NCBI RefSeq assembly: GCF_000759835.1
Contig: NZ_BBNB01000008.1
Coordinates: 206,744 to 238,743, forward strand
DNA: 32,000 nt
From: Citrobacter sedlakii NBRC 105722
Lineage (GTDB): Bacteria; Pseudomonadota; Gammaproteobacteria; Enterobacterales; Enterobacteriaceae
Direction: 5' to 3'
The position numbers and the translations under genes were made by a program. Within the stretch, counting starts at the first letter, position 1, and each line of letters opens with the position of its first letter. Of this stretch, positions 2,001 to 12,159 are shown one piece after another. The notes beneath the pieces were generated by a model. It was not told the origin of the DNA. It searched no databases and saw nothing but the letters and a program-made list of their open reading frames with translations.

Positions 2001-3038
2001 ATGTTTTCCGCAACGCGCCGTTTTGTCGCCATCCTGGCCCTCGGCGTCTGCTTTATGGCTCCCGCACAGGCGTCAGCATCGTCACCTGGCGATTTTGCGA
2101 CATTACAAACCCGGCATATTGCGACCGTCTTTCCCGGTCGAATGACGGGTTCCCCGGCTGAAATGCTTTCCGCTGACTATTTACGTCAGCAGTTTGCGCA
2201 AATGGGGTATCGCAGCGATATTCGTACCTTTAACAGCCGTTATATTTATACCGCGAAAGATAACCGCAAGAACTGGCATAACGTGACCGGTAGCACCGTG
2301 ATTGCCGCCCATGAAGGCAAAGCGCCGCAGCAAATTATTATCATGGCGCACCTGGATACCTACGCCCCGCAAAGCGACGCCGACATCGACGCGAATCTGG
2401 GCGGGTTGACCCTACAGGGCGTGGACGATAACGCCGCGGGTCTGGGCGTGATGCTCGAGCTGGCCGAACGTCTGAAAGATGTCCCCACCGAATACGGCAT
2501 TCGTTTTATCGCCACCAGCGGCGAGGAAGAAGGCAAACTCGGCGCGGAAAATCTCCTTAAGCGTATGAGCGCAGCGGAGAAGAAAAACACCCTGCTGGTG
2601 ATTAATCTCGATAACCTGATTACTGGCGATAAGCTGTACTTTAATAGCGGACAGCGCACTCCGGAAGCCGTGCGCAAATTAACCCGCGACCGGGCGCTCG
2701 CCATTGCCCGCAGTCACGGCATTGCCGCGACCACCAATCCGGGGATGAATAAGGATTACCCGAAAGGCACCGGCTGTTGTAACGATGCGGAAGTGTTCGA
2801 CAGAGCCGGAATTGCGGTGCTTTCCGTTGAGGCCACGAACTGGAACCTCGGTAAAAAAGACGGGTATCAGCAGCGCGCGAAAACGGCGTCCTTCCCGGCA
2901 GGCAACAGCTGGCACGACGTTCGCCTGGATAACCAGCAGCATATCGATAAAGCGCTTCCCGGACGCATTGAGCGCCGCAACCGGGACGTGATGCGTATCA
3001 TGCTGCCGCTGGTGAAAGAGCTGGCGAAAGCGTCTTAA
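2001..3038 (+). CDS. iap: Alkaline phosphatase isozyme conversion aminopeptidase (M28 family)
   Basis: 345-aa ORF with signal peptide MFSATRRFVAILALGVCFMAPAQASA. Contains motifs MAHLDTY, DDNAAG and SGEEEGKLGAE. Colinear with the remembered E. coli Iap. Confidence 0.92.
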   Translation: MFSATRRFVAILALGVCFMAPAQASASSPGDFATLQTRHIATVFPGRMTGSPAEMLSADYLRQQFAQMGYRSDIRTFNSRYIYTAKDNRKNWHNVTGSTVIAAHEGKAPQQIIIMAHLDTYAPQSDADIDANLGGLTLQGVDDNAAGLGVMLELAERLKDVPTEYGIRFIATSGEEEGKLGAENLLKRMSAAEKKNTLLVINLDNLITGDKLYFNSGQRTPEAVRKLTRDRALAIARSHGIAATTNPGMNKDYPKGTGCCNDAEVFDRAGIAVLSVEATNWNLGKKDGYQQRAKTASFPAGNSWHDVRLDNQQHIDKALPGRIERRNRDVMRIMLPLVKELAKAS

Positions 3039-3077: not shown

Positions 3078-3348
3078 TTGCCAGTCTCCATGACCACAGA
3101 TCGCCTTCACGCAATTCTCTGGCGCCACACTAATTTTTCAGGAAATAAAACTGTTATTAAGTAGCAGGAATACGGAATTATTATTTGAAAATTTCTACCG
3201 AAATAGTCAGCGCTGTAAAATGAGAGAAGAGAAAACCCAATAATCACCTTGAAGAATCGTTATAAAACAAGCAATTTAACGCAAAGTAAATCGATGACGA
3301 GTAATGTGATGTGAAGGGTACATTTTGCCTACGGGAATAGCAAACTGC

Positions 3349-3381
3349 AAAAAGCCGGATAACGTCAACGATTTATCCGGC
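3349..3381 (-). terminator. Rho-independent terminator of the small secreted protein gene
   Basis: On the minus strand: gccggataa-(10 nt loop)-ttatccggc, a perfect 9-bp stem followed by TTTTT, about 37 nt after the stop at 3418. Confidence 0.75.
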
Positions 3382-3417
3382 CCGGAAGTAATTGCGGTAC
3401 GCGGTATAACCAGGGCG

Positions 3418-3699
3418 TTATTTGAGACCCATGGACTGTTTCATTTGAACCAGCGCCGCCGCACCTTGCTTACAGCCAGCATCCTGGTTTTCCGCCGGTA
3501 ATTCCGCAAGTTGTTTTTTAGCCTGTTCCAACTGCGGTTTCATGGCCTCCATTTGTTGTTTAGCTTGTTCGCTGGATTTTGACGCTTCAACAATTAATGT
3601 ATCAACATCGTTAAAATATTGCTGACAGGTTTCGGTGATTGCTGCAAAAGAAGCGCCGGACACCAGCGTCAGTGCCGTAGCAAAAATGATTTTTTTCAT
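3418..3699 (-). CDS. Small secreted/periplasmic alpha-helical protein, 93 aa, function unknown
   Basis: ATG preceded by gaggga SD at correct spacing. Sec signal MKKIIFATALTLVSGASFA|A. Mature 74 aa is Q/K/E/A-rich with exactly two Cys (near each end). Own terminator downstream. Confidence 0.75.
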   Translation of the reverse strand: MKKIIFATALTLVSGASFAAITETCQQYFNDVDTLIVEASKSSEQAKQQMEAMKPQLEQAKKQLAELPAENQDAGCKQGAAALVQMKQSMGLK

Positions 3700-3721
3700 C
3701 TGTTTTTCCCTCAGTGTTAAA

Positions 3722-3752
3722 ATGACGTTACTGCCTCCGGCAATAACGTCAT
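3722..3752 (-). promoter_or_regulatory. Perfect 9-bp inverted repeat in the 5' leader of the small secreted protein gene
   Basis: atgacgtta (3722-3730) and taacgtcat (3744-3752) are separated by 13 nt, 23-53 nt upstream of the ATG at 3699. Could be an RNA hairpin or an operator. Confidence 0.3.
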
Positions 3753-3905
3753 CAAGAGTAATGCAAACCAGAGGGTAAAACAGCTTCAGACATTATTTTC
3801 AGATTATTCATTTTAGTTTTCGACAAACAGATCACAGTTCGACGCCTGACGAAATTTTTAACCCTGCCCCTCAGATGAGAAGAGGCTGATAAGAAAGACT
3901 GACAT

Positions 3906-4538
3906 TTATAAAATAATCAATTCTTTCAACTTCTTACCCATCTTCCGCTCTAAGGAGTACTTTAGGTTAAAAACACTTTTGTTGCTTATTCTGACTATTT
4001 CCGCCACTTCCTGGGTGCTGTAACCGGAAAGGAGTAAATGCAGGATCTTTACTTCAAGGCCCGTCGCCCTCGTTATCTTTTGGCTCTGATTCATTGAAAC
4101 CATACGTCCGGACTTGCGCAATGCTAACGGCTTGTAGGTTCGTACAGTCAATACATCAACGATACACGTTTCCTTATGTTTCCAGTAACCGGCAAGAGGC
4201 TCCATCGTTTGATCGCTAAGCAAAATTATCTTCATCGGCACTTTTTTCAAATGATTCAGCCATGCATCGTCAGCAAATAGAGAAAGATAATAATGGGAAA
4301 AATCAACAAAAATCATCCCACCCGAATGAATATTGTAATAATTATCCTTCAGCAAGAGAGTTATTCCTTTTTCCAGTAGAAAATTCCCTATAGGCCAGAT
4401 AATATATTGACTCTCCATGCAATTGAGCATGCGCACGTTAAAAGTATCGGTCATATTACATTGCCAGGCACAGCTTTGGCATTTAATGGGGTAATCTTTA
4501 TGGTAGTTCACAATGCGTCCATTATGGAGAAATAACAT
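3906..4538 (-). CDS. LuxR/FixJ-family HTH transcriptional regulator, EcpR/MatA-like, with N-terminal Cys4 motif (paralog 1)
   Basis: 210-aa ORF. C-terminal LuxR HTH is LEVKILHLLLSGYSTQEVAEIVRISNKSVFNLKYSLERKMG. N-terminal landmarks IIWP, MIFVDF, AWLNHLKK and AGYW are colinear with the remembered E. coli EcpR/MatA. The SD for ATG 4538 is poorly spaced, so the start is less certain. Confidence 0.8.
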   Translation of the reverse strand: MLFLHNGRIVNYHKDYPIKCQSCAWQCNMTDTFNVRMLNCMESQYIIWPIGNFLLEKGITLLLKDNYYNIHSGGMIFVDFSHYYLSLFADDAWLNHLKKVPMKIILLSDQTMEPLAGYWKHKETCIVDVLTVRTYKPLALRKSGRMVSMNQSQKITRATGLEVKILHLLLSGYSTQEVAEIVRISNKSVFNLKYSLERKMGKKLKELIIL

Positions 4539-5038
4539 TCCTTATCTAAATATTATTGTTTTATTTGTTGCTATTCTAGATATATTTCATTTCTCTATTA
4601 TTATGAAAAAGATGGATTATTCTGATGCTTCGCAGAAAAGTATCTCGAGGTTATGCGATACTGATATTGCTTTTTATCCTGTTTACCAGGATTCTTTCCA
4701 GACAATTTTAGGATTATTGCTTGCGATGGCGCGGGTTTATGTAAAGGTAAATAGCACAAAATGTTAAATGTGTTTCACAAAATGCTTCGAAAATGAAAGC
4801 AGCTCTCGCTCTGTGTGGGGAAAAACACCTGGCATCACAAAGTATCATTGCTTTTTCGTTTCCACTTTTTTAACTTTTAGGCGATCGGGTGCTTAACGGG
4901 AAACGGGCTTTTCTTAAATTTCCGCTATTTTCTGTATGTCAACGTAAATATATTTCGATAAAGAAATATGTTTACTGTTTGTTCATGCTCGCTTCATTAT
5001 GGTTCTCTTCGATAATAAATTAATTGTGAAGGTACATT

Positions 5039-5674
5039 TTGAAAATAAAAGAAATACCCGATATCACTCACTGTGTAGGTTGTGGGTTACATTGTCCAAC
5101 CAGCGATCAAAAAACCATTTGGGCTGTACTTTGTGAAAATAAAAAAATAATCATATGGCCTGAGGACAACTATTTTTTCTCGGCATCACTGCATCATTTA
5201 GTCTTCAGAAAATACGCGTGCAAATTACCAAGGGGCGTTATCTTTGTTGATTTTTGCATTGAGAATCTGCCATTGTTCATCGACATTGCCTGGCTGGAAA
5301 AACTTAAAAATTTTGAGATGAGCATTGTACTGGTCACCGACCGGTCAATGAAGTCAATGGCCAGGTACTGGTTCAACAGAAGAAAAGAGATTATTGCTAT
5401 ACTGGTGGCAGGCAACGAACGCGCCTCCTTTATGAAGGACGCAGAAGATATCTTACGCGGAAAAAAGGTCAAACCTAAAGGTATTGTTGAAATAACAGAA
5501 AATGAAATGCAAGTTTTAAGGATGTTTGGAAGTGGGCACTCAACGTCTTTCATCGCACAAAAACTCAACTGTTCTGTTAAGAGTGTTTATAATTACCAAT
5601 ACTCGCTGTGTAAGAAACTGGGTAATTTAAAACGCTTAGAGCAGTTACGTCTGAAACATCGGGTCAGCTGGTAA
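5039..5674 (+). CDS. LuxR/FixJ-family HTH transcriptional regulator, EcpR/MatA-like, with N-terminal Cys4 motif (paralog 2)
   Basis: 211-aa ORF with a TTG start 6 nt after the gaagg SD; there is no in-frame ATG until codon 94. HTH is EMQVLRMFGSGHSTSFIAQKLNCSVKSVYNYQYSLCKKLG. Gap-free colinearity with paralog 1 through IIWP, VIFVDF, AWLEKLK and ARYW. Confidence 0.78.
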   Translation: MKIKEIPDITHCVGCGLHCPTSDQKTIWAVLCENKKIIIWPEDNYFFSASLHHLVFRKYACKLPRGVIFVDFCIENLPLFIDIAWLEKLKNFEMSIVLVTDRSMKSMARYWFNRRKEIIAILVAGNERASFMKDAEDILRGKKVKPKGIVEITENEMQVLRMFGSGHSTSFIAQKLNCSVKSVYNYQYSLCKKLGNLKRLEQLRLKHRVSW

Positions 5675-5702
5675 ACAAACCGGCACAACGTACCGGTTTG
5701 TT
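5674..5702. terminator. Bidirectional hairpin between convergent regulator and autotransporter genes
   Basis: aacaaaccgg (5674-5683) pairs with ccggtttgtt (5693-5702), a perfect 10-bp stem. T-rich flanks on both strands. Lies between the stops at 5674 and 5727. Confidence 0.55.
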
Positions 5703-5726
5703 GTTCAGAAGAGAGAACATGGATGA

Positions 5727-8339
5727 TTAGAAGCTGTAACGGAATCCAAGATTCGCCTGAACAGGGTCTTCTTGCTTATTCCCTTTTGCATAATCAAGTT
5801 CGGCAAACAGTGAAAGCTCCTTGTTGAAGGACGCACTTACCCCGATACCCGCTTTTCCCAGGTCACCGGAAAGATTGGTGGTAAACGTATTGCGCTGGTT
5901 AATTGTCGTACTGTTGTTGTCGACATATTCATGCACCCACGCCGCTTTGAAATACGGTGTAATAGATGTCCCTTTGTTTAGCAAGAAAGTGCGTCCAAGA
6001 TTAAAACCAGCTTCTGTGGTCAGCGAATCCTGATCGTCAATGCTGCCTTTCATGCCATTATTCAGTTTGATATCCTGACCTTTAACCTGAATTGCGGCAA
6101 CCTTTGCATACGGCTCAAACCAAAAATGGTTCTGGAAATGGATGCTCTTACCCACTTCGATCGCTGCGCCCAGAGCATGTTGACTGTAATCGGCCGAAAT
6201 ACCGCTTCCATTTGTCGATACTGCATTTAAAGCGTTATCAAAATGGTTGTACTTCAGTATGCCATCAACATACCATCCCTCGTTGTGAAACCAGGTGGCC
6301 TGTGCGCCAATGCTAAGGCTATCAATACGGCTTACGCCCCCTCGCGCATGCTTCACCTTACCGCTGTTATAGCTTGTAAACAGACCAACACGTGTTTTGG
6401 CGCCTTCGGTTGCCATTATTTGGTCAACGCCTAACTCTATTCCTGATTGTTCAAGTTTAAAGTCAGTATGCCCGCTGTCGATATTTGAGTTTCCACCCGT
6501 GAAACGCATCCATGCGCCATTGTCACCTTCCGTTTTCTCCGCCAGGCCTTGCCGGAAGCGTAAATTCTGCATCTCGTTTTTAAACATGATAACGGGCGCC
6601 GCTGACATAGAAAGCACAGCATCCGTCGCGGGCGTGGTTTTCGGCTTGTCCGTGATGGACGGAATTTCCTGACCCGGATCAGGTGTAGGTTCGACAGGTG
6701 TCGGGGTTTCTTCGCCCGGTTCAGGAGTCGGAGTTTCTTCTCCCGGTTCTGGCTCCGGAATTTCGACTACAGGCTCTTTTTCTGCTGCCAGATACCAAAT
6801 TTTACCGGTGTCTTCATCTCTTTCATAAAGCGAATACATGTAAGTACCGCCGTCAATGGCATTAATATTGGTACCGGCGAGCGTGGCAAGGCTAAAACTC
6901 GCTCCACCGCTTGCATCGGAAATAATATCAAGGCTGCGTCTATCCGGCTCTGTGATCTCCGCACCTGAATCGGCTACGGTAACGTTATGGTTGCCGGTAC
7001 CCGTGGTGATGTTCAGGTAGTCCCCTTTGCCGCCTTCTAAAGAGGTATTGAAGTAAAAATGTAAATTGCCAGACAGTGAGTCAACATTCAGTCTGGAGTA
7101 AATAGCCGCACCGCTGGTGGCATCGCTGCCAGTGTAATACCTGACATTACCTTGTCCAGACAAGGCACCTACGGTTGCCGCGTCACTGTCACTGCTGTTG
7201 GCAATAATCAACAATGTTGAATCGCTGCCATTCAGCGCTACGTTATCTGCCCTCGCCCCGCCATCAGCGGATGTCGAAAGCTGCAATTGCCCCCGGTCAT
7301 TAACCTGCGTTGCTCCTGTCATTGTTGCGCTATTCGCCAACCAGGATTTCGCGCTGCCGTTAATGGTGACATTTTCCGTGGTCGCATTACCATACACCGT
7401 CTGTATCGCCGCATCGTTCAGCGTCACATTATTCGCTGCAGAGCCAGCGTAAATAGTCTGTACGGCATTATCATTCAGGGTAACGATGTTAGCCGTACCG
7501 CCCTGTTGTAATACCTGCGCCCCGGTACCAAACAACGTCGTATTATTGGCGACGCCGGCAATGGCTGATGTATCCGAACCGTTGATAAACAAGTACTGAA
7601 TGCCACCGCTTTTGATGGTTGTATCATTCACTACGCCGCTGTTATAGACATATTGACGTCCATCTTCATTGATGGTCGCGCTATTTGCGATACCCGATAA
7701 GGTCACATACTGGATGCCGCCGTTAATCTGCGCATTACTGGAGACTCCAGACTGCTGAGCATATTCGTAGCCGCCTTGATCAATAACGGTACCGCTGCTG
7801 CTGCCACCTTCGTAGACAAATAATTTCCCGCCATCACTGACGTTATTATCTATGGCTTTACCAGTACTCCCGGTGTTTCCACTGTTAGAAACATAAGCGG
7901 TCCCCCCTTCCAGATGAGAATTTTGCAGCGTGCCACCATCATATACGCGTACTAAGCCGCCACTTTTAATTTTTATATTGGATGCGGTAGCGGGTACTGT
8001 ACTATCAAAACCACCATTCGCTATTTTTGAGACCTGCGTGATGTAAACTTCGGCGCCCGAGTTGACGATAGAATCTTCCATAAAACCGAGCACACTCATC
8101 AGGCTACCGCTCAACATATTGACGTTCATTGCCGTGCCAGCGTAGCCATTAACCCCTCCATAGTTATATGCGCCAATTTCGATGCAGCGATTTGCGTCAA
8201 GATCGCCAGTCACCGTTGCAGAGCCGCCATACGATACGCTGGTGCGGCTACCGCAAAATGTCGCGGCAAAGGAAGATTGCGATAATGATATCGCCGTCAG
8301 AAATGCAAGTGTCGTCAGTTGTGTTTTAAGCTTCATCAT
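5727..8339 (-). CDS. AIDA-I/Ag43-type autotransporter adhesin (type Va secretion)
   Basis: 870 aa with signal peptide MMKLKTQLTTLAFLTAISLSQSSFA|A. The passenger is made of degenerate about 19-aa G-G-x-x-y-V/N-x-T-I beta-helix repeats. A Pro-rich linker (PEPEPGEETPTPEPGEETPTPVEPTPDPG) follows. The C-terminal beta-barrel ends in the canonical LGFRYSF. Confidence 0.92.
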   Translation of the reverse strand: MMKLKTQLTTLAFLTAISLSQSSFAATFCGSRTSVSYGGSATVTGDLDANRCIEIGAYNYGGVNGYAGTAMNVNMLSGSLMSVLGFMEDSIVNSGAEVYITQVSKIANGGFDSTVPATASNIKIKSGGLVRVYDGGTLQNSHLEGGTAYVSNSGNTGSTGKAIDNNVSDGGKLFVYEGGSSSGTVIDQGGYEYAQQSGVSSNAQINGGIQYVTLSGIANSATINEDGRQYVYNSGVVNDTTIKSGGIQYLFINGSDTSAIAGVANNTTLFGTGAQVLQQGGTANIVTLNDNAVQTIYAGSAANNVTLNDAAIQTVYGNATTENVTINGSAKSWLANSATMTGATQVNDRGQLQLSTSADGGARADNVALNGSDSTLLIIANSSDSDAATVGALSGQGNVRYYTGSDATSGAAIYSRLNVDSLSGNLHFYFNTSLEGGKGDYLNITTGTGNHNVTVADSGAEITEPDRRSLDIISDASGGASFSLATLAGTNINAIDGGTYMYSLYERDEDTGKIWYLAAEKEPVVEIPEPEPGEETPTPEPGEETPTPVEPTPDPGQEIPSITDKPKTTPATDAVLSMSAAPVIMFKNEMQNLRFRQGLAEKTEGDNGAWMRFTGGNSNIDSGHTDFKLEQSGIELGVDQIMATEGAKTRVGLFTSYNSGKVKHARGGVSRIDSLSIGAQATWFHNEGWYVDGILKYNHFDNALNAVSTNGSGISADYSQHALGAAIEVGKSIHFQNHFWFEPYAKVAAIQVKGQDIKLNNGMKGSIDDQDSLTTEAGFNLGRTFLLNKGTSITPYFKAAWVHEYVDNNSTTINQRNTFTTNLSGDLGKAGIGVSASFNKELSLFAELDYAKGNKQEDPVQANLGFRYSF
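6696..6749 (-). repeat. Imperfect 27-bp tandem duplication encoding the EPGEETPTP linker repeat of the autotransporter
   Basis: 6696-6722 versus 6723-6749 differ at 4 positions. The duplication is in-frame (9 codons each). Confidence 0.7.
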
Positions 8340-8591
8340 TTAATACCATGCGTGTGATACAGATAAAAATAAAAAAAACGCCCCTCTTGCGTAAAATACT
8401 TGGGGATTTTTAGCGGGTGATAGCGGGAGGGAAATAAAATGATGCGACTGATACATTAAAAAAATCAGCAGGTTGGAGTTCCTTCCTATATATACCGTCC
8501 CTTAATTGCTATGGTATGGAAAAGAATAAAACTAAGCAAGATGGTGATATAATTACGAAACGTGATTTTTAATGGAAAAATCCTAACCAAA

Positions 8592-9360
8592 ATGAGTTAT
8601 CGCCAATAAATATAAATTTTACATATTGCAAAAACAGTTAGATAAAATTGCCGATGCTTTTTTTGGCTGATTTTTCTTAACCACTCCAGGAATATTGCTC
8701 TCTTTTTATGAGATAACGAAATTTCACTTTCAGCACTTTTTGCTAAAGTATCGTGACAGGCTGGAAGAGGTCAGACATTTTCGGGAAAATAAGCGCGCGC
8801 ATGATGGCGGGATACCGTGACGAAAGTCCCAGAATTTTAGCCCTGTAACAACATGGTTATCGTCATTGAATCCCCACACATTACTTACGAATCCCCTGTA
8901 ATCTGTAGGTAAAAAATTACCATTATCACTGATGCCGGCTTTCAGAACACCTGGTTCCTTCATGTACGCTCACTGGACTGAGATTTTATTGGGCGCATAC
9001 AGGGGAATGTCCGGTTCCGTCTGGACTGTCTTCCGGAAAGATGGCTAAAACTAAAGATGCTGCAAGCCAACAGTAAAGCAAAATTCCAGGGGGGGAGGAA
9101 CGCTGGTCAGAGCTGAATATGGCGTGGCTAGGGTTACTTATTTCCATAAAAGAGTCAAAAAGACAACAAGAACCAGCATGCTCGCTGCCGGATCTCACGT
9201 TATTTTCAGGAAAATGCATGCATAGAGGCGGCTAAAGAGCCGTGGTTAATATTCAGCAGTATGGATGAATCTGACGCCCGGAAAATCATGAAGCTATACA
9301 GCAGAAGAATACAGATAGGGCAGAATTTCCACGATGAAAAAAGTGAGCGCTTTGGTTTTA
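8592..9360 (+). mobile_element. Decayed IS4-family (IS10-like) transposase gene remnant, 3'-truncated at the CRISPR array
   Basis: One plus-strand frame from 8916 to 9356 is colinear with the remembered IS10 transposase. Matches: ITIITDAGFQNTWF (8916-8957, cf LIVSDAGFKVPWY); GRIQGNVRF (8991-9017, cf SRVRGKVQY); KSQKDNKNQ (9150-9176, cf KSRSKGRKNQ); EPWLIFS...KLYSRRIQIGQNFHDEKS (9237-9344, cf EPWVLATN...IYSKRMQIEETFRDLKS). In-frame stops at 8979 (TGA where IS10 has Trp), 9114, 9129 and 9147. The N-terminal part is in another frame: LKYRDRLEEVRHFRENKRA (8743-8799, cf IKRIDRLLGNRHLHKERLA). Internal deletions are present. The 5' limit is soft; a possible terminal CTGAT motif lies at 8448. Confidence 0.72.
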
Positions 9361-10848
9361 TCCCCGCAGGCGTGAGGAACACGCTGGCGGCGTTGTAAAT
9401 GCCCGTGACATCTGACGGTTTATCCCCGCTGACGCGGGGAACACGACGCCGGATTTAATGCTGATGCCAGCAATGCCGGTTTATCCCCGCTGACGCGGGG
9501 AACACTAAACGGCTACCGTTTCGGAAAGAATGCTAATCGGTTTATCCCCGCTGACGCGGGGAACACGGATCGTCAGGCCGGGAAACCTCTTCCATTACCG
9601 GTTTATCCCCGCTGACGCGGGGAACACACCTGATCCCACTGCTCGGGGGTCAAAACCTCCGGTTTATCCCCGCTGACGCGGGGAACACATTCCTGACATA
9701 TCACTCAACTTTTACGACGGCGGTTTATCCCCGCTGACGCGGGGAACACTTATATCAACCGACTGGTAAATTGGATGCCGCCGGTTTATCCCCGCTGACG
9801 CGGGGAACACGAGAAGCTCTGCCGCTGCGTCGTCAGGTGGTGCGGTTTATCCCCGCTGACGCGGGGAACACTCATCAACCCACACATACATAACACGCTG
9901 ACCCGGTTTATCCCCGCTGACGCGGGGAACACCCGTTGACTCCATTTCAGCGCCACGTCGAAAGCGGTTTATCCCCGCTGACGCGGGGAACACGAACTAC
10001 GCCCCAACAAACTCGGTTTATTTTGCGGTTTATCCCCGCTGATGCGGGGAACACGAGCAAAAGGGGGTTTTGAGATTTTATCTATTCGGTTTATCCCCGC
10101 TGACGCGGGGAACACGGGCCGCGTGGCGGTAGACCTCTACAGTCAGCAGGTTTATCCCCGCTGACGCGGGGAACACTCAATTAGCGCGGCATTTTGTAAA
10201 AGAATTTCCGGTTTATCCCCGCTGACGCGGGGAACACGTCCAGTATACAACCTAATTGCTAACTTGAATTCGGTTTATCCCCGCTGACGCGGGGAACACA
10301 CCAGCACCTTCGCGCACTGGTCATTCACAATCGGTTTATCCCCGCTGACGCGGGGAACACAACTCGGTGATGTATGTTGCGTTTTCAAGAGGCGGTTTAT
10401 CCCCGCTGACGCGGGGAACACAACTCGGTGATGTATGTTGCGTTTTCAAGAGGCGGTTTATCCCCGCTGACGCGGGGAACACTTACTCAAGAGGATGTTG
10501 GGACATTTGAGGGACGGTTTATCCCCGCTGACGCGGGGAACACGAGTGTGTTGGTTTGCCGGGAGTGCCAAAGGGTGGTTTATCCCCGCTGACGCGGGGA
10601 ACACGCGAAGGATTCATTTGCAAACTCAGTGACGAGCGGTTTATCCCCGCTGACGCGGGGAACACATCACACTGCGTTTAATTATTGGGCGCATAATCGG
10701 TTTATCCCCGCTGACGCGGGGAACACTTAAGGGGAATATATGTCAGATCAGAATATCCCGGTTTATCCCCGCTGACGCGGGGAACACTCTGACCGTGTAT
10801 CTATGATGCAGGCAGCGCGCGGTTTATCCCCGCTGACGCGGGGAACAC
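9354..10848 (-). CRISPR. Type I-E CRISPR array: 24 canonical 29-bp repeats plus 1 degenerate terminal repeat, 24 spacers (22 of 32 nt, 2 of 33 nt)
   Basis: Repeat cggtttatccccgctgacgcggggaacac occurs at 61-bp periodicity. Starts: 9416, 9477, 9538, 9599, 9660, 9721, 9782, 9843, 9904, 9965, 10026, 10087, 10148, 10209, 10271, 10332, 10393, 10454, 10515, 10576, 10637, 10698, 10759, 10820. The degenerate copy ggttttatccccgcaggcgtgaggaacac lies at 9354-9382. Orientation is set by the AT-rich leader and cas2 at the high-coordinate end. Read from the leader, the repeat is GTGTTCCCCGCGTCAGCGGGGATAAACCG. Confidence 0.98.
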
Positions 10849-10953
10849 ACTAAATGTATCCATCTGATTTTAAATGTTTTTTATCTACAGCAACAATCTA
10901 CCAACGTAAAATAAACATTTCCGTATTCTAAAAGAAAAAATAACCATTTGAAT
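10849..10953 (-). promoter_or_regulatory. CRISPR leader (array promoter and spacer-integration region)
   Basis: 105-bp AT-rich non-coding stretch between the cas2 stop (10954) and the first repeat (10848). This is the standard type I-E leader position. Confidence 0.75.
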
Positions 10954-11241
<288 letters not shown>

Positions 11242-12159
11242 CTACGCTCCACGATGACCGCTGTCACCTAACGTTTTCGGTTCTGCTATCGCCGGGGGCA
11301 ACATATCCGGCGCTGGCTGCGGTGGTGCAATTTCTCCAGCCATGAGTACCTCTTCAATCAGAGGGATCAGTTTCCCGGTTAGCTTGTCGCTGCGAAAAAT
11401 ATCCCGACAGGCTAGCCTTACCACCCTGTCAGGCTCAGCTGGATGACGCGCTGCAATTTCAAACGCTTTCGGTACAACCGTTTCAAACTTAATGATGTCA
11501 GCAATATCGTAAACAAATGAGAGAGGCTTACCGCTATGAATAAAGCCAATCGCAGGCGCATATCCTGCGGCTAAAACGGCTGCTTCAGTAATGCCATAAA
11601 GACAAGATGTCGCTGCGCTGATGCACTGATTCACCACATCGCCTTTCTCCCAATCTTTGGGATCATAACGACGTCCATTCCATTTCACGCCATAGTGTTT
11701 CGCCAGCAATGCGTATGTCTGCCGAACGCGAGATCCTTCAATTCCTCGTAATTGCTCAACAGAGCGGCGTGCAGGCGGCGGCTCGCGAAAACGGAGTTCG
11801 TACATTTTACGCACAACTTTCAATCGTAAATCATCGTCAAGCGCCAGCTTCGCCTGGTAAAGCAGTTTATCGGCACGCGCGCCGCCGGGCTGACCCGAAG
11901 CATAAAGACGAACCCCCGCTTCTCCCATCCAGACCAATAGCGTACCGACCGTTGACGCCAGCCTTACGGCTGCGTGAGAAACGCGCGTTCCAGGCTCCAG
12001 CATAATGCAGGCGACGGAGCCTACTGGAATATGTGTGCGTATGCCTGTCTTATCGATCAAGACAAAAGCGCCATCCAGCACATCAATCTGACCATATTGC
12101 AGAAAGATCATAGAGGTCCGATCCTTTAATGGGATCGGACTTAACGGTACGAACGTCAC
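11242..12159 (-). CDS. cas1: CRISPR-associated integrase Cas1 (type I-E)
   Basis: 305 aa with a GTG start overlapping the cas6e stop (GTGA). MTFVPLSPIPLKDRTSMIFLQYGQIDVLDGAFVLIDKTGIRTHIPVGSVACIMLEPGTRVSHAAV is nearly identical to the remembered E. coli K-12 Cas1. Confidence 0.96.
   Translation of the reverse strand: MTFVPLSPIPLKDRTSMIFLQYGQIDVLDGAFVLIDKTGIRTHIPVGSVACIMLEPGTRVSHAAVRLASTVGTLLVWMGEAGVRLYASGQPGGARADKLLYQAKLALDDDLRLKVVRKMYELRFREPPPARRSVEQLRGIEGSRVRQTYALLAKHYGVKWNGRRYDPKDWEKGDVVNQCISAATSCLYGITEAAVLAAGYAPAIGFIHSGKPLSFVYDIADIIKFETVVPKAFEIAARHPAEPDRVVRLACRDIFRSDKLTGKLIPLIEEVLMAGEIAPPQPAPDMLPPAIAEPKTLGDSGHRGA

What the first reader, a model, noticed from the sequence alone, without database searches (positions are those of the whole stretch)
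3906..5674. Divergent paralogous EcpR/MatA-like regulators share an exactly spaced C-x2-C-x3-C-x12-C-x7-WP motif
Both proteins have a C-terminal LuxR HTH and an N-terminal domain colinear with my recollection of E. coli EcpR/MatA (IIWP, FVDF, AWL..LK, YW landmarks). The two paralogs are only modestly similar overall. Even so, each carries four cysteines at identical spacing just before the conserved WP. Paralog 1 has C20, C23, C27, C40 and W48-P49. Paralog 2 has C12, C15, C19, C32 and W40-P41. As far as I recall, EcpR has only one Cys in this region. Conserved Cys4 spacing across diverged paralogs suggests a Zn or Fe-S site. That would mean metal- or redox-sensing control of the neighbouring adhesin. 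The N-domain does not fit canonical receiver spacing: acidic pair to FVDF Asp is 28 residues rather than about 44.
Basis: partly seen in the sequence, partly recalled or inferred. Interest (0 to 1): 0.75.

Follow-up and report, generated by a model that had tools for sequence, protein, structure and literature searches.

The report
Cysteine-capped EcpR-family adhesin regulator pair
Two divergently transcribed LuxR-type regulators next to an autotransporter adhesin gene both carry a strictly spaced four-cysteine cap; the cap is a widespread and apparently undescribed trait of the EcpR family (it is also in E. coli YqeH and Salmonella RmbA), and it probably binds a metal.

Summary
Paralog 1 (3906-4538, minus strand) and paralog 2 (5039-5674, plus strand) are 31% identical. 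Both carry C-x2-C-x3-C-x12-C-x7-WP ahead of a receiver-like domain and a GerE/LuxR helix-turn-helix.

The motif is not special to this pair. It marks a large part of the EcpR_N family (Pfam PF27348):
- 35 of 40 motif-bearing cluster representatives have the exact 12/7 spacing.
- It occurs in E. coli K-12 YqeH, in the Salmonella gene just upstream of misL, and in both regulators flanking the ecp fimbrial operon of Klebsiella.
- E. coli EcpR/MatA keeps only the fourth Cys, so it is the exception.

Three observations argue for a four-ligand metal site. The cysteine count before WP is all-or-none (0-2 or at least 4, never 3). Cys codons swap synonymously between orthologs. Cys-less members arose several times by loss of the N-terminus. 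Zn versus Fe-S cannot be decided here, and redox sensing remains a hypothesis.

The trio regulator-regulator-autotransporter recurs at three chromosomal sites in different bacteria. Conserved GGAWTWTTSC boxes resembling RcsAB/TTCCT boxes lie in both control regions.

Verdict: new members of a known but barely studied family, carrying an unexplored conserved cysteine site.

The parts
3906..4538 (-). Paralog 1, a 210-aa EcpR_N-family LuxR-type regulator
   Evidence: ORF. Pfam GerE 27.9 bits. NCBIfam EcpR 35 bits, sub-threshold. Precomputed Pfam PF27348 EcpR_N plus GerE. Orthologues in L002, L005 and L008.
4392..4481 (-). Paralog 1 Cys4-WP motif (residues C20, C23, C27, C40, W48-P49)
   Evidence: Read from the translation. 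Invariant in orthologues. Synonymous TGT/TGC changes at the Cys codons.
3936..4055 (-). Paralog 1 GerE/LuxR helix-turn-helix (residues 162-201)
   Evidence: Pfam PF00196 match to residues 162-201.
4539..5038 (.). 500-bp AT-rich divergent control region between the two regulator genes
   Evidence: Alignment of four orthologous regions shows islands of invariant sequence in otherwise diverged DNA.
4612..4625 (+). Conserved box S1, ATGGATTATTCTGA, 74-87 nt upstream of the paralog 1 ATG. It reads ATGGAATATTCCTG in L003 and L008.
   Evidence: Resembles the RcsAB box TaAGaatatTCctA (PMC3950696) and contains the TTCCT-type core in L003/L008.
4709..4722 (+). Conserved box S2, TAGGATTATTGCTT. The core AGGATTATTGCT is invariant in all four loci.
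5039..5674 (+). Paralog 2, a 211-aa EcpR_N-family LuxR-type regulator (TTG start, GAAGG Shine-Dalgarno)
   Evidence: ORF. Start-codon context. Pfam GerE 36.1 bits. NCBIfam EcpR 53 bits, sub-threshold. Identical protein P0001 is named by NCBI as from Citrobacter sedlakii. AF2 model pLDDT 87.
5072..5161 (+). Paralog 2 Cys4-WP motif (C12, C15, C19, C32, W40-P41)
   Evidence: In the AF2 model this region has mean pLDDT 59-80 per 10-residue block with the 29-sequence alignment.
5495..5623 (+). Paralog 2 GerE/LuxR helix-turn-helix (residues 153-195)
   Evidence: Pfam PF00196. hhalign to the RcsB HTH, probability 93.9%.
5727..8339 (-). 870-aa AIDA-type autotransporter adhesin, convergent with paralog 2
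   Evidence: Pfam Autotransporter, Pertactin and AIDA. NCBIfam BafA-family C-terminal model 646 bits against a cut-off of 700. Conserved next to the regulator pair in L002, L003 and L008.
8574..8583 (-). Conserved box S4 (TAGGATTTTTCCAT on the autotransporter strand), about 235 nt upstream of the autotransporter ATG
8689..8698 (+). Conserved box S3 (GAGCAATATTCCTGG on the autotransporter strand), about 350 nt upstream of the autotransporter ATG
   Evidence: Contains TATTCCT, the right half of the RcsAB box and the TTCCT core reported for EcpR (PMC3950696, PMC13593695).

Best explanation
Both genes encode transcription factors of the EcpR_N family, the family of EcpR/MatA, TviA, YqeH and RmbA. 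Each protein has three parts: (i) an N-terminal cap of about 30 residues with four cysteines, C-x2-C-x3-C-x12-C, seven residues before an invariant Trp-Pro; (ii) a degenerate, non-phosphorylatable receiver-like alpha/beta domain; (iii) a C-terminal GerE/LuxR helix-turn-helix.

Shown:
- Family membership.
- Conservation and all-or-none behaviour of the cysteines.
- The predicted fold.
- The recurrence of the gene trio regulator / regulator / autotransporter at three different chromosomal sites.
- Conserved GGAWTWTTSC boxes in both control regions.

Inferred:
- The four thiolates form one tetrahedral metal site. A Zn(Cys)4 knuckle is slightly favoured and a [4Fe-4S] cluster is a close second.
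- This site holds the cap against the receiver-like domain and thereby conditions the stability, dimerisation or DNA binding of the regulator.
- The two paralogs act on the RcsAB/TTCCT-like boxes, as a heteromer with each other or with RcsB as MatA and TviA do. In this way they autoregulate and switch on the AT-rich, probably H-NS-silenced, autotransporter gene.
- Because the cap has been lost repeatedly while the rest of the protein was kept, it is an accessory (regulatory or stabilising) module and not part of the core fold.
For: Family and fold:
- Precomputed Pfam EcpR_N plus GerE.
- hhalign of the 29-sequence alignment to E. coli MatA: probability 99.4%, E 9e-22 over 166 columns.
- AF2 pLDDT 87 / pTM 0.85 with alternating beta-alpha units and then four HTH helices.
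- The top Foldseek PDB hits are RcsB, DesR, FixJ, EvgA and VpsT, E about 2.5e-6.

Cys4 as a functional unit:
- 35 of 40 motif-bearing representatives have the exact 12/7 spacing.
- Among 48 representatives with at least 30 residues before WP, the Cys count in the 32 residues before WP is 0-2 (13 proteins) or 4-6 (35 proteins), never 3. Background Cys is 1.5%.
- No His replaces any of the four Cys in motif-bearing members.
- Cys codons change synonymously among orthologues.
- The motif is present in E. coli YqeH, in the Salmonella regulator directly upstream of misL, and in both regulators flanking ecp in Klebsiella and Jejubacter.

The cap is accessory:
- Cys-less members (MatA, P0007/L010, P0012, P0020, P0053) are scattered over an NJ tree.
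- P0007 is truly truncated, with a stop codon one codon upstream of its start.

Module and operator:
- The same trio occurs in L002 (iap side), L003 (after trpA) and L008 (Enterobacter sp., different flanks).
- Four conserved boxes lie in otherwise diverged non-coding DNA.
- GGAWTATTS occurs 5 times in the window against 0.97 expected, and 3 of the 5 lie in the two control regions.
- The boxes are similar to the RcsA-RcsB consensus TaAGaa|tatTCctA (PMC3950696), to the EcpR TTCCT boxes and to the C. rodentium ecp distal element TAAGAATATC (PMC13593695).
- MatA and TviA are documented RcsB partners (PMC5651002).
- The island has 38-42% GC against 51-58% in the flanks.
Against: - No metal has been measured in any family member.
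- The Cys cap is the least confident part of the model (block means 59-80; below 50 with the 6-sequence alignment). I could not read coordinates to check the thiol geometry.
- The cap has no detectable relative in Pfam or in PDB sequences.
- The motif has only one CxxC pair, which is unlike classical Zn ribbons. The 3+1 cysteine layout is more typical of [4Fe-4S] sites, so the lean towards Zn is weak.
- Binding of the boxes by these proteins, any interaction with RcsB or with each other, and control of the autotransporter are all untested.
- The C. rodentium relative that lies downstream of ecp was dispensable for ecp expression and undetectable as a protein (PMC13593695).
- The pattern count GGAWTWTTSC is not significantly enriched over the whole window (4 against 1.0 expected; 5 of 100 shuffles reach 4), so the case for the boxes rests on cross-locus conservation.
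Confidence: 0.62

Rival explanations
1. The Cys4 cap binds an oxygen-, ROS-, NO- or iron-sensitive Fe-S cluster (most likely [4Fe-4S]). The regulators would then be true redox or iron sensors: cluster gain or loss would switch dimerisation or DNA binding, as in FNR, and tie adhesin expression to oxygen or iron availability.
For: - Three closely spaced Cys plus one remote Cys is the classic cubane layout. From my knowledge, C-x2-C-x3-C is the spacing of the first three ligands of the N-terminal [4Fe-4S] site of Mo-bisPGD enzymes, and FNR also uses an N-terminal C-x2-C-x5-C plus a distant Cys.
- The site is all Cys, with no His substitutions, in motif-bearing members.
- The cysteines behave all-or-none.
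- The module has been lost repeatedly while functional regulators were kept, as expected for a sensory add-on.
- The C. rodentium relative was undetectable by western blot under aerobic laboratory conditions (PMC13593695), which fits an unstable apo-protein but does not show it.
Against: - The fourth Cys is 12 residues away, not 24-34 as in Mo-bisPGD enzymes, and there is no Pfam Molybdop_Fe4S4 or other Fe-S family hit even at E up to 10.
- The cap is only about 30 residues, with a predicted hairpin plus short helix. That is little protein to shield a cubane unless the cluster sits at an interface.
- I found no experimental or literature support.
Confidence: 0.3
2. The cysteines bind no metal. 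They form disulfides or a thiol switch, or they simply pack a small cysteine-rich cap.
For: Some members have five to seven Cys in the first 40 residues (YqeH; count distribution). Thiol-based switches exist in receiver-derived regulators; RitR (5u8m) appears in the Foldseek list at rank 44.
Against: These are cytoplasmic proteins. A strictly conserved set of four Cys, with fixed spacing and all-or-none retention, is the signature of a tetrahedral site rather than of one or two disulfides.
Confidence: 0.06
3. The proteins are ordinary two-component response regulators that are phosphorylated on the FVDF aspartate, and the cysteines are incidental.
For: The predicted fold resembles NarL/FixJ-type response regulators. 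Asp is common at D71 (68 of 88) and D101 (72 of 88).
Against: - No Pfam receiver hit at E up to 1, and the profile comparison with RcsB aligns only the HTH.
- The model has four beta-alpha units, one fewer than a receiver.
- The acidic pair is absent in paralog 1 and is not conserved in the family (WPxxN).
- There is no histidine kinase gene in the module.
- The characterised relative MatA acts independently of RcsB phosphorylation (PMC5651002).
Confidence: 0.02

Closest known systems
Salmonella SPI-3 gene immediately upstream of misL (rmbA by the published gene order, recalled from memory)
   Same: A 205-aa EcpR_N-type regulator with the identical motif (C11, C14, C18, C31, W39-P40). It lies directly next to an AIDA-type autotransporter adhesin, confirmed as MisL by the NCBIfam equivalog at 2277 bits. 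This is the same regulator-plus-autotransporter logic as in the window.
   Different: It is a single regulator, co-oriented with misL. The window has a divergent pair with the autotransporter convergent. The autotransporters are not orthologous (24% identity, beta-domain only). The function of rmbA is unstudied in the papers I could search.
E. coli K-12 YqeH (b2846), a putative LuxR-family regulator beside the ETT2 island
   Same: It has the same length class and the same residue numbers as paralog 2 (C12, C15, C19, C32, W40-P41). Its deletion in an avian pathogenic strain lowers motility, biofilm formation and adhesion (PMC9014576).
   Different: It sits next to yqeI/yqeJ (ToxR-like and YqeJ-type genes), not next to an autotransporter. 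It belongs to a different clade. The paper does not mention its cysteines.
E. coli EcpR/MatA, activator of the ecp (Mat) fimbrial operon and RcsB partner
   Same: It is homologous from the fourth Cys to the C-terminus (hhalign probability 99.4%) and has the same pseudo-receiver plus GerE architecture. It binds TTCCT boxes overlapping an RcsB box (PMC13593695) and works with RcsB independently of phosphorylation (PMC5651002).
   Different: It lacks the first three cysteines (only C19 remains). It is the first gene of a chaperone-usher operon. The window proteins score 35 and 53 bits against the 300-bit EcpR equivalog cut-off.
The two regulators flanking the ecp operon in Klebsiella pneumoniae, Jejubacter and Dryocola, and the C. 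rodentium 'ecpR ortholog' ROD_29261
   Same: These are pairs of EcpR_N regulators, both with the Cys4 motif, bracketing an adhesin locus. Paralog 2 clusters with the distal, convergent ecp regulators, which is the position described for ROD_29261 (PMC13593695).
   Different: The adhesin is a chaperone-usher pilus, not an autotransporter. Paralog 1 forms its own clade. I did not retrieve the ROD_29261 sequence, so its Cys content is unverified.
RcsB and other NarL/FixJ-type response regulators (solved structures 5vxn, 5o8y, 4ldz, 5xt2, 8zwn, 3kln)
   Same: They are the best structural matches to the model over about 200 columns (E 2.5e-6), and the HTH is homologous.
   Different: TM-scores are only about 0.33-0.45. 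There is no sequence-level receiver similarity, no conserved phospho-acceptor set and one beta-alpha unit fewer. None of these structures has an N-terminal Cys4 cap.
FNR and the N-terminal [4Fe-4S] site of Mo-bisPGD enzymes (recalled from memory)
   Same: Both have an N-terminal cluster of three closely spaced Cys plus a distant fourth. The C-x2-C-x3-C spacing equals the Mo-bisPGD FS0 motif.
   Different: There is no homology. The fourth-Cys distance is different (12 residues), and so is the host fold.

Membership tests
EcpR_N family (Pfam PF27348) of LuxR-type regulators | Match to the EcpR_N domain | tested here: met
   The precomputed Pfam annotation lists PF27348 (named EcpR_N) for the proteins identical to both paralogs (P0001, P0005) and for their orthologues. 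hhalign to MatA gives probability 99.4%. My local Pfam copy lacks this model.
EcpR_N family (Pfam PF27348) of LuxR-type regulators | C-terminal GerE/LuxR helix-turn-helix | tested here: met
   PF00196 at 27.9 and 36.1 bits, cut-off 23.5.
EcpR/MatA proper (NCBIfam NF047921 equivalog) | Score at or above the curated 300-bit cut-off | tested here: not met
   35.1 and 53.3 bits. The proteins are distant paralogs, not EcpR orthologues.
EcpR/MatA proper (NCBIfam NF047921 equivalog) | First gene of the ecpRABCDE chaperone-usher operon | tested here: not met
   The neighbours are iap, a DUF5339 gene, an autotransporter and a CRISPR array.
RcsB auxiliary regulators (functional class: RcsA, BglJ, GadE, MatA, TviA, DctR) | FixJ/NarL-type HTH protein without a functional phospho-acceptor site | tested here: met
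   GerE HTH, no receiver-family hit and no conserved acidic pair.
RcsB auxiliary regulators (functional class: RcsA, BglJ, GadE, MatA, TviA, DctR) | Physical and functional heteromer with RcsB on an asymmetric box containing an RcsB half-site | not testable with these tools
   The only evidence is indirect: conserved boxes resembling TaAGaa|tatTCctA (PMC3950696). A two-hybrid or EMSA experiment is needed.
Canonical response-regulator receiver domain | Pfam Response_reg match and the conserved DD...D...T/S...K set on a five-stranded (beta-alpha)5 fold | tested here: not met
   No hit at E up to 1. hhalign to RcsB covers only the HTH. The model has four strands (37-40, 67-72, 95-100, 118-123). 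The family consensus after strand 1 is WPxxN.
Canonical response-regulator receiver domain | Receiver-like alpha/beta fold | tested here: met
   Foldseek top hits are RcsB, DesR, FixJ and EvgA at E 2.5e-6 to 1e-4, TM 0.33-0.45.
Fe-S cluster-binding sensors / Mo-bisPGD-type N-terminal 4Fe-4S motif | C-x2-C-x3-C followed by a fourth Cys after about 24-34 residues; match to an Fe-S domain model | tested here: not met
   The first three spacings match, but the fourth Cys follows after 12 residues. There is no Pfam hit for the N-terminal peptides at E up to 10 and no PDB sequence hit.
Fe-S cluster-binding sensors / Mo-bisPGD-type N-terminal 4Fe-4S motif | Bound Fe-S cluster (UV-vis, EPR, Fe and sulfide content) | not testable with these tools
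   Requires anaerobic purification.
Zinc ribbon / zinc knuckle modules | Two CxxC (or CxxH) knuckles on a beta-hairpin scaffold | tested here: not met
   There is only one CxxC; the other ligands are at +3 and +12. The model shows one beta-bridge pair (residues 11 and 20) and a helix at 27-32. No zinc-finger family hit. Metal content itself is not testable here.

The most novel reading that the evidence does not exclude
The N-terminal Cys4 cap is a labile Fe-S (or redox-active metal) sensor that is ancestral to the EcpR family. Many enterobacterial adhesin regulators would then be cofactor-gated. These include YqeH, the regulator beside MisL, the ecp-locus regulators of Klebsiella and Citrobacter, and this autotransporter-linked pair. 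They would couple pilus and autotransporter expression to oxygen, ROS or iron. The two paralogs would form a heteromer, with each other or with RcsB. E. coli EcpR/MatA and TviA would be derived, signal-blind versions.
Probability: 0.27. Interest if true: 0.75.

Novelty: new member of a known kind. Interest (0 to 1): 0.5.

Why it matters
RcsB-auxiliary-type regulators such as MatA/EcpR and TviA are currently thought to act simply by being present, so control is placed at the level of their expression (PMC5651002). A strictly conserved, all-or-none four-cysteine site in most family members would add a direct input, a cofactor or redox state, to regulators that sit next to adhesin genes in several enterobacterial genera. 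Members with the motif include E. coli K-12 YqeH, the Salmonella SPI-3 regulator beside MisL, and both regulators flanking the Klebsiella ecp operon.

The idea is cheap to test because a K-12 gene (yqeH) carries the same site. If the site proves to be a structural zinc, the result is a modest annotation improvement: a definable 'Cys4-capped EcpR_N' subfamily, with E. coli EcpR as the atypical member.

The conserved regulator-regulator-autotransporter cassette and its shared boxes also give a compact system for asking how two paralogous LuxR-type proteins cooperate.

Tried and rejected
- The word-indexed homologue searches returned only 4, 2 and 6 proteins. The third search, with the 29-sequence alignment, added no names, so family breadth came from the exhaustive representative search.
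The narrow paralog 2 alignment found only three species-representative genomes, none labelled Citrobacter. The module is therefore rare and apparently absent from the species-representative genome.
- Megablast of the island against complete E. coli genomes found nothing.
- Pfam on the isolated N-terminal peptides and a 38-column profile against PDB sequences gave no relatives of the cap.
- Literature searches on yqeH, rmbA and ecpR combined with cysteine, zinc or Fe-S found no description of the motif. 'YqeH' hits that mention Fe-S or zinc appear, from their titles and my own knowledge, to concern the unrelated Bacillus/plant GTPase of the same name; I did not open them. The key EcpR paper (PMC3430341) is not held.
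- Rejected the idea that Cys-less relatives are just mis-called starts: P0007 has a stop codon one codon upstream of its start.
- Rejected DUF5339 as part of the module: it is present in the window and L002 but absent from L003 and L008.
- Rfam found no RNA family in the window.
- The simple promoter and terminator scans were no better than shuffles.
Full report
**What is there.** The window reads as an enterobacterial chromosome. It carries iap (2001-3038), then a low-GC island (38-42% GC against 51-58% in the flanks), then a type I-E CRISPR array and further ORFs that I read, without testing them, as cas and cysHIJ genes. The island holds four genes:
- a small DUF5339 gene (3418-3699, minus strand);
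- paralog 1 (3906-4538, minus strand, 210 aa);
- paralog 2 (5039-5674, plus strand, 211 aa; TTG start behind GAAGG);
- an 870-aa AIDA-type autotransporter (5727-8339, minus strand).

Proteins identical to both paralogs are on record and are named by NCBI as from Citrobacter sedlakii.

**Checking the observation.** The two proteins are 31% identical (E 1e-30), and the four cysteines and the Trp-Pro align without gaps. Both have a GerE/LuxR helix-turn-helix above Pfam's cut-off. Both hit NCBI's EcpR model far below its cut-off (35 and 53 bits against 300), and paralog 2 also weakly hits TviA. The EcpR and TviA models begin only 5-7 positions before the WP, so those two proteins lack the cysteine-bearing extension. 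E. coli MatA/EcpR, read from K-12, has a single Cys (C19), and it aligns with the fourth cysteine. One detail needs correcting. The 'acidic pair' exists only in paralog 2 (E42-D43). Paralog 1 has WPIGN, and the family consensus is WPxxN.

**Is the motif conserved?** Orthologues at 55-77% identity keep all four cysteines. An exhaustive profile search of 1.84 billion cluster representatives gave 930 hits at E up to 0.001. Among the best 150:
- About 40 short proteins carry the full motif, and 35 of these have exactly the 12/7 spacing.
- In an alignment of 29 such proteins (20-37% identical to paralog 2), the only invariant positions besides the start Met are the four Cys, W40, P41, A108 and E156. 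That alignment was selected on the motif, so I also made an unbiased count.
- Among 48 representatives with at least 30 residues before WP, the number of cysteines in the 32 residues before WP is 0-2 in 13 proteins and 4-6 in 35, and never 3. The background is 1.5% Cys.
- A few members keep C-x2-C-x3-C but place the fourth Cys at another distance.
- No His replaces a Cys in motif-bearing members.
- Between orthologous loci, the N-terminal 45-53 codons show many synonymous changes, including TGT/TGC swaps at the Cys codons. The region is therefore translated and under purifying selection.

All-or-none retention of four thiols at fixed spacing is the expected signature of a single four-ligand site.

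**Who else has it?** The precomputed Pfam domain of all these proteins is PF27348, named EcpR_N. The motif occurs in the following proteins:
- E. coli K-12 YqeH (b2846), with the same residue numbers as paralog 2.
- The 205-aa Salmonella gene immediately upstream of, and co-oriented with, misL. The autotransporter is confirmed as MisL by its NCBIfam equivalog at 2277 bits. By the published SPI-3 gene order, which I recall from memory, this gene is rmbA. One source labels the Klebsiella homologue 'RmbA'.
- Both regulators flanking the ecp fimbrial operon of Klebsiella pneumoniae and Jejubacter. In Dryocola the distal regulator has it, and the other gene is cut by the locus end after its third and fourth Cys.
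- A regulator lying between a yqeI/yqeJ-like pair and a chaperone-usher operon in Enterobacteriaceae bacterium LSJC7.
- A YqeH-like ORF that travels with blaCTX-M-2 on E. coli IncF plasmids.

A rough NJ tree puts paralog 2 with the distal, convergent ecp regulators. That is the position described for the C. rodentium 'ecpR ortholog', which is 26% identical to E. coli EcpR, dispensable for ecp expression and undetectable as a protein (PMC13593695). Paralog 1 forms its own clade. Cys-less members (MatA, P0007, P0012, P0020, P0053) are scattered across the tree. P0007 is truly N-terminally truncated, with a stop codon one codon upstream of its start. The cap therefore looks ancestral and repeatedly lost, which makes it a separable accessory module. 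E. coli EcpR, the family's best-studied member, is atypical in lacking it.

**Structure.** With six sequences, AlphaFold2 gave pLDDT 76 and no confidence in residues 13-34. With the 29-sequence alignment it gave pLDDT 87 and pTM 0.85, with block means of 79, 59 and 80 for residues 11-40. The predicted elements are:
- a beta bridge between residues 11 and 20;
- a helix at 27-32;
- four beta-alpha units (strands 37-40, 67-72, 95-100, 118-123);
- four HTH helices.

The best Foldseek matches in the PDB are RcsB, DesR, FixJ, EvgA and VpsT (E about 2.5e-6, TM 0.33-0.45). At the sequence-profile level only the HTH aligns with RcsB, and Pfam finds no receiver domain. The middle domain is thus a degenerate, one-unit-short receiver-like fold without a conserved phospho-acceptor set. 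The cap itself has no relative in Pfam or among PDB sequences. I could not read model coordinates, so the thiol geometry is unchecked.

**Zn or Fe-S?** This cannot be settled here. For Fe-S:
- The layout is three close cysteines plus one remote.
- The spacing of the first three equals the C-x2-C-x3-C of the N-terminal [4Fe-4S] site of Mo-bisPGD enzymes.
- FNR offers a parallel: an N-terminal Cys cluster that gates dimerisation.

These three points are from my own knowledge. For Zn:
- The module is small.
- The predicted shape is a hairpin plus a helix.
- Zn(Cys)4 caps are common on bacterial regulators.

My estimate is about 45% Zn, 35-40% Fe-S and the rest neither. No paper I could search mentions these cysteines.

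**What do the regulators control?** The trio paralog 1 (minus) / paralog 2 (plus) / autotransporter (minus) recurs with both Cys4 motifs intact in three other places:
- a related genome at the same iap site (L002);
- after trpA in a metagenomic contig (L003-L005);
- between unrelated genes in Enterobacter sp. KBR-315C3 (L008).

The trio therefore moves as a unit. Aligning the four divergent control regions and the four autotransporter upstream regions reveals short invariant islands. In window coordinates these are:
- ATGGATTATTCTGA (4612-4625), which reads ATGGAATATTCCTG in L003 and L008;
- TAGGATTATTGCTT (4709-4722);
- GAGCAATATTCCTGG (core at 8689-8698, read on the autotransporter strand);
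- TAGGATTTTTCCAT (core at 8574-8583, read on the autotransporter strand).

All four are variants of the imperfect palindrome GGAWTWTTSC. GGAWTATTS occurs 5 times in the window against 0.97 expected, and 3 of the 5 lie in these two regions. The looser pattern is not significantly enriched window-wide, so conservation across loci is the real evidence. The boxes resemble three described elements:
- the RcsA-RcsB consensus TaAGaa|tatTCctA (PMC3950696);
- the TTCCT boxes bound by EcpR, which overlap an RcsB box;
- the essential distal element TAAGAATATC of C. rodentium ecp (PMC13593695).

MatA and TviA work as heteromers with RcsB (PMC5651002). I therefore infer that the two paralogs bind these boxes, autoregulate and activate the autotransporter. 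They would do so together or with RcsB, probably against H-NS silencing of the AT-rich island. None of this has been tested.

**Comparison and novelty.** The proteins are members of the EcpR_N family but are not EcpR orthologues. Their closest named relatives, YqeH and the regulator beside MisL, are barely characterised (PMC9014576, PMC11068852). The regulator-next-to-autotransporter arrangement already exists in Salmonella SPI-3. The genes are therefore new members of a known kind. Two things appear to be new. First, the Cys4 cap is a conserved, all-or-none, family-wide feature that the characterised E. coli EcpR lacks. Second, Cys4-bearing paralogs come in conserved pairs around adhesin loci.

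**Verdict.** Interest is moderate (0.5). The result would be mundane if the site is a structural zinc. It would be notable if it is a labile Fe-S sensor controlling adhesin regulators across several enterobacterial genera.

Noticed in passing
window 9355-10860: Type I-E CRISPR array of about 25 repeats (CGGTTTATCCCCGCTGACGCGGGGAACAC, 61-nt period). Two adjacent spacers are identical (AACTCGGTGATGTATGTTGCGTTTTCAAGAGG at about 10361-10392 and 10422-10453), and the first repeat at 9357 is degenerate. The ORFs at 10954-11238 and 11242-12159 (both minus strand), which follow the array, look like cas2 and cas1; I did not test them.
   Followed up: partly
window 3300-8400; L002, L003, L008: The regulator-regulator-autotransporter trio sits in a low-GC island between iap and the CRISPR array. 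The same trio is found after trpA (L003) and between unrelated genes in Enterobacter sp. KBR-315C3 (L008), so it is a mobile cassette. No integrase or flanking repeats were looked for. A scan of one genome per species found only three related loci, none labelled Citrobacter.
   Followed up: partly
window 3418-3699 (minus strand): A 93-aa DUF5339 protein with a signal-peptide-like N-terminus lies between iap and paralog 1. It is also present in L002 but is absent from the other copies of the cassette, so it is probably not part of it.
   Followed up: partly
L018 5947-6678 (E. coli IncF plasmid NZ_LT985293.1): A YqeH-like ORF with the full Cys4-WP motif lies just downstream of blaCTX-M-2 in an ISCR1/sul1 complex integron, and its 3' end runs into qacEdelta1. 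It presumably hitch-hiked from the chromosomal source of CTX-M-2. In all, 107 plasmid records (83 of them conjugative) carry family members.
   Followed up: partly
L013 7001-14486 (Klebsiella pneumoniae); L015; L016: The ecp (common pilus) operon of Klebsiella and Jejubacter is bracketed by two EcpR_N regulators, one in the ecpR position and one convergent after ecpE, and both have the Cys4 motif. Dryocola has the same layout, but its ecpR-position gene is cut by the locus end. NCBI's EcpR model scores the Klebsiella ecpR-position protein at only 33 bits, and one source labels it 'RmbA'.
   Followed up: yes
L007 549-2719; L010 5977-8147: The Cys-less, N-terminally truncated paralog 2-like regulator (184 aa; Enterobacillus tribolii and a metagenome) lies next to a CSS-motif EAL phosphodiesterase gene. 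From memory, that class is controlled by a periplasmic disulfide. L006 also has a CSS-EAL gene and a globin-coupled GGDEF gene near a family member.
   Followed up: no
L009 4211-10816 (Enterobacteriaceae bacterium LSJC7); L006 648-2746; L001 5537-7787: Cys4-type (or variant-Cys) regulators recur next to a ToxR-like (Trans_reg_C) gene plus a YqeJ-type gene, as in E. coli yqeH-yqeI-yqeJ. In LSJC7 this set also adjoins a chaperone-usher fimbrial operon. From memory, this echoes marT-fidL beside misL in Salmonella SPI-3.
   Followed up: partly
window 9078-9087 (minus strand): A further GGAATTTTGC box lies between the autotransporter upstream region and the CRISPR leader. Its conservation was not examined.
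   Followed up: no
window 4748-4768 and 4932-4987: The divergent control region has additional invariant blocks that do not fit the GGAWTWTTSC box: GTAAATAGCACAAAATGTTAA, CTGTATGTCAACGTAAATA and GTTTACTGTTTGTTCAT. A TTTAGCAAAAAGTGC block lies upstream of the autotransporter. They could be promoters or sites for other factors such as IHF.
   Followed up: no
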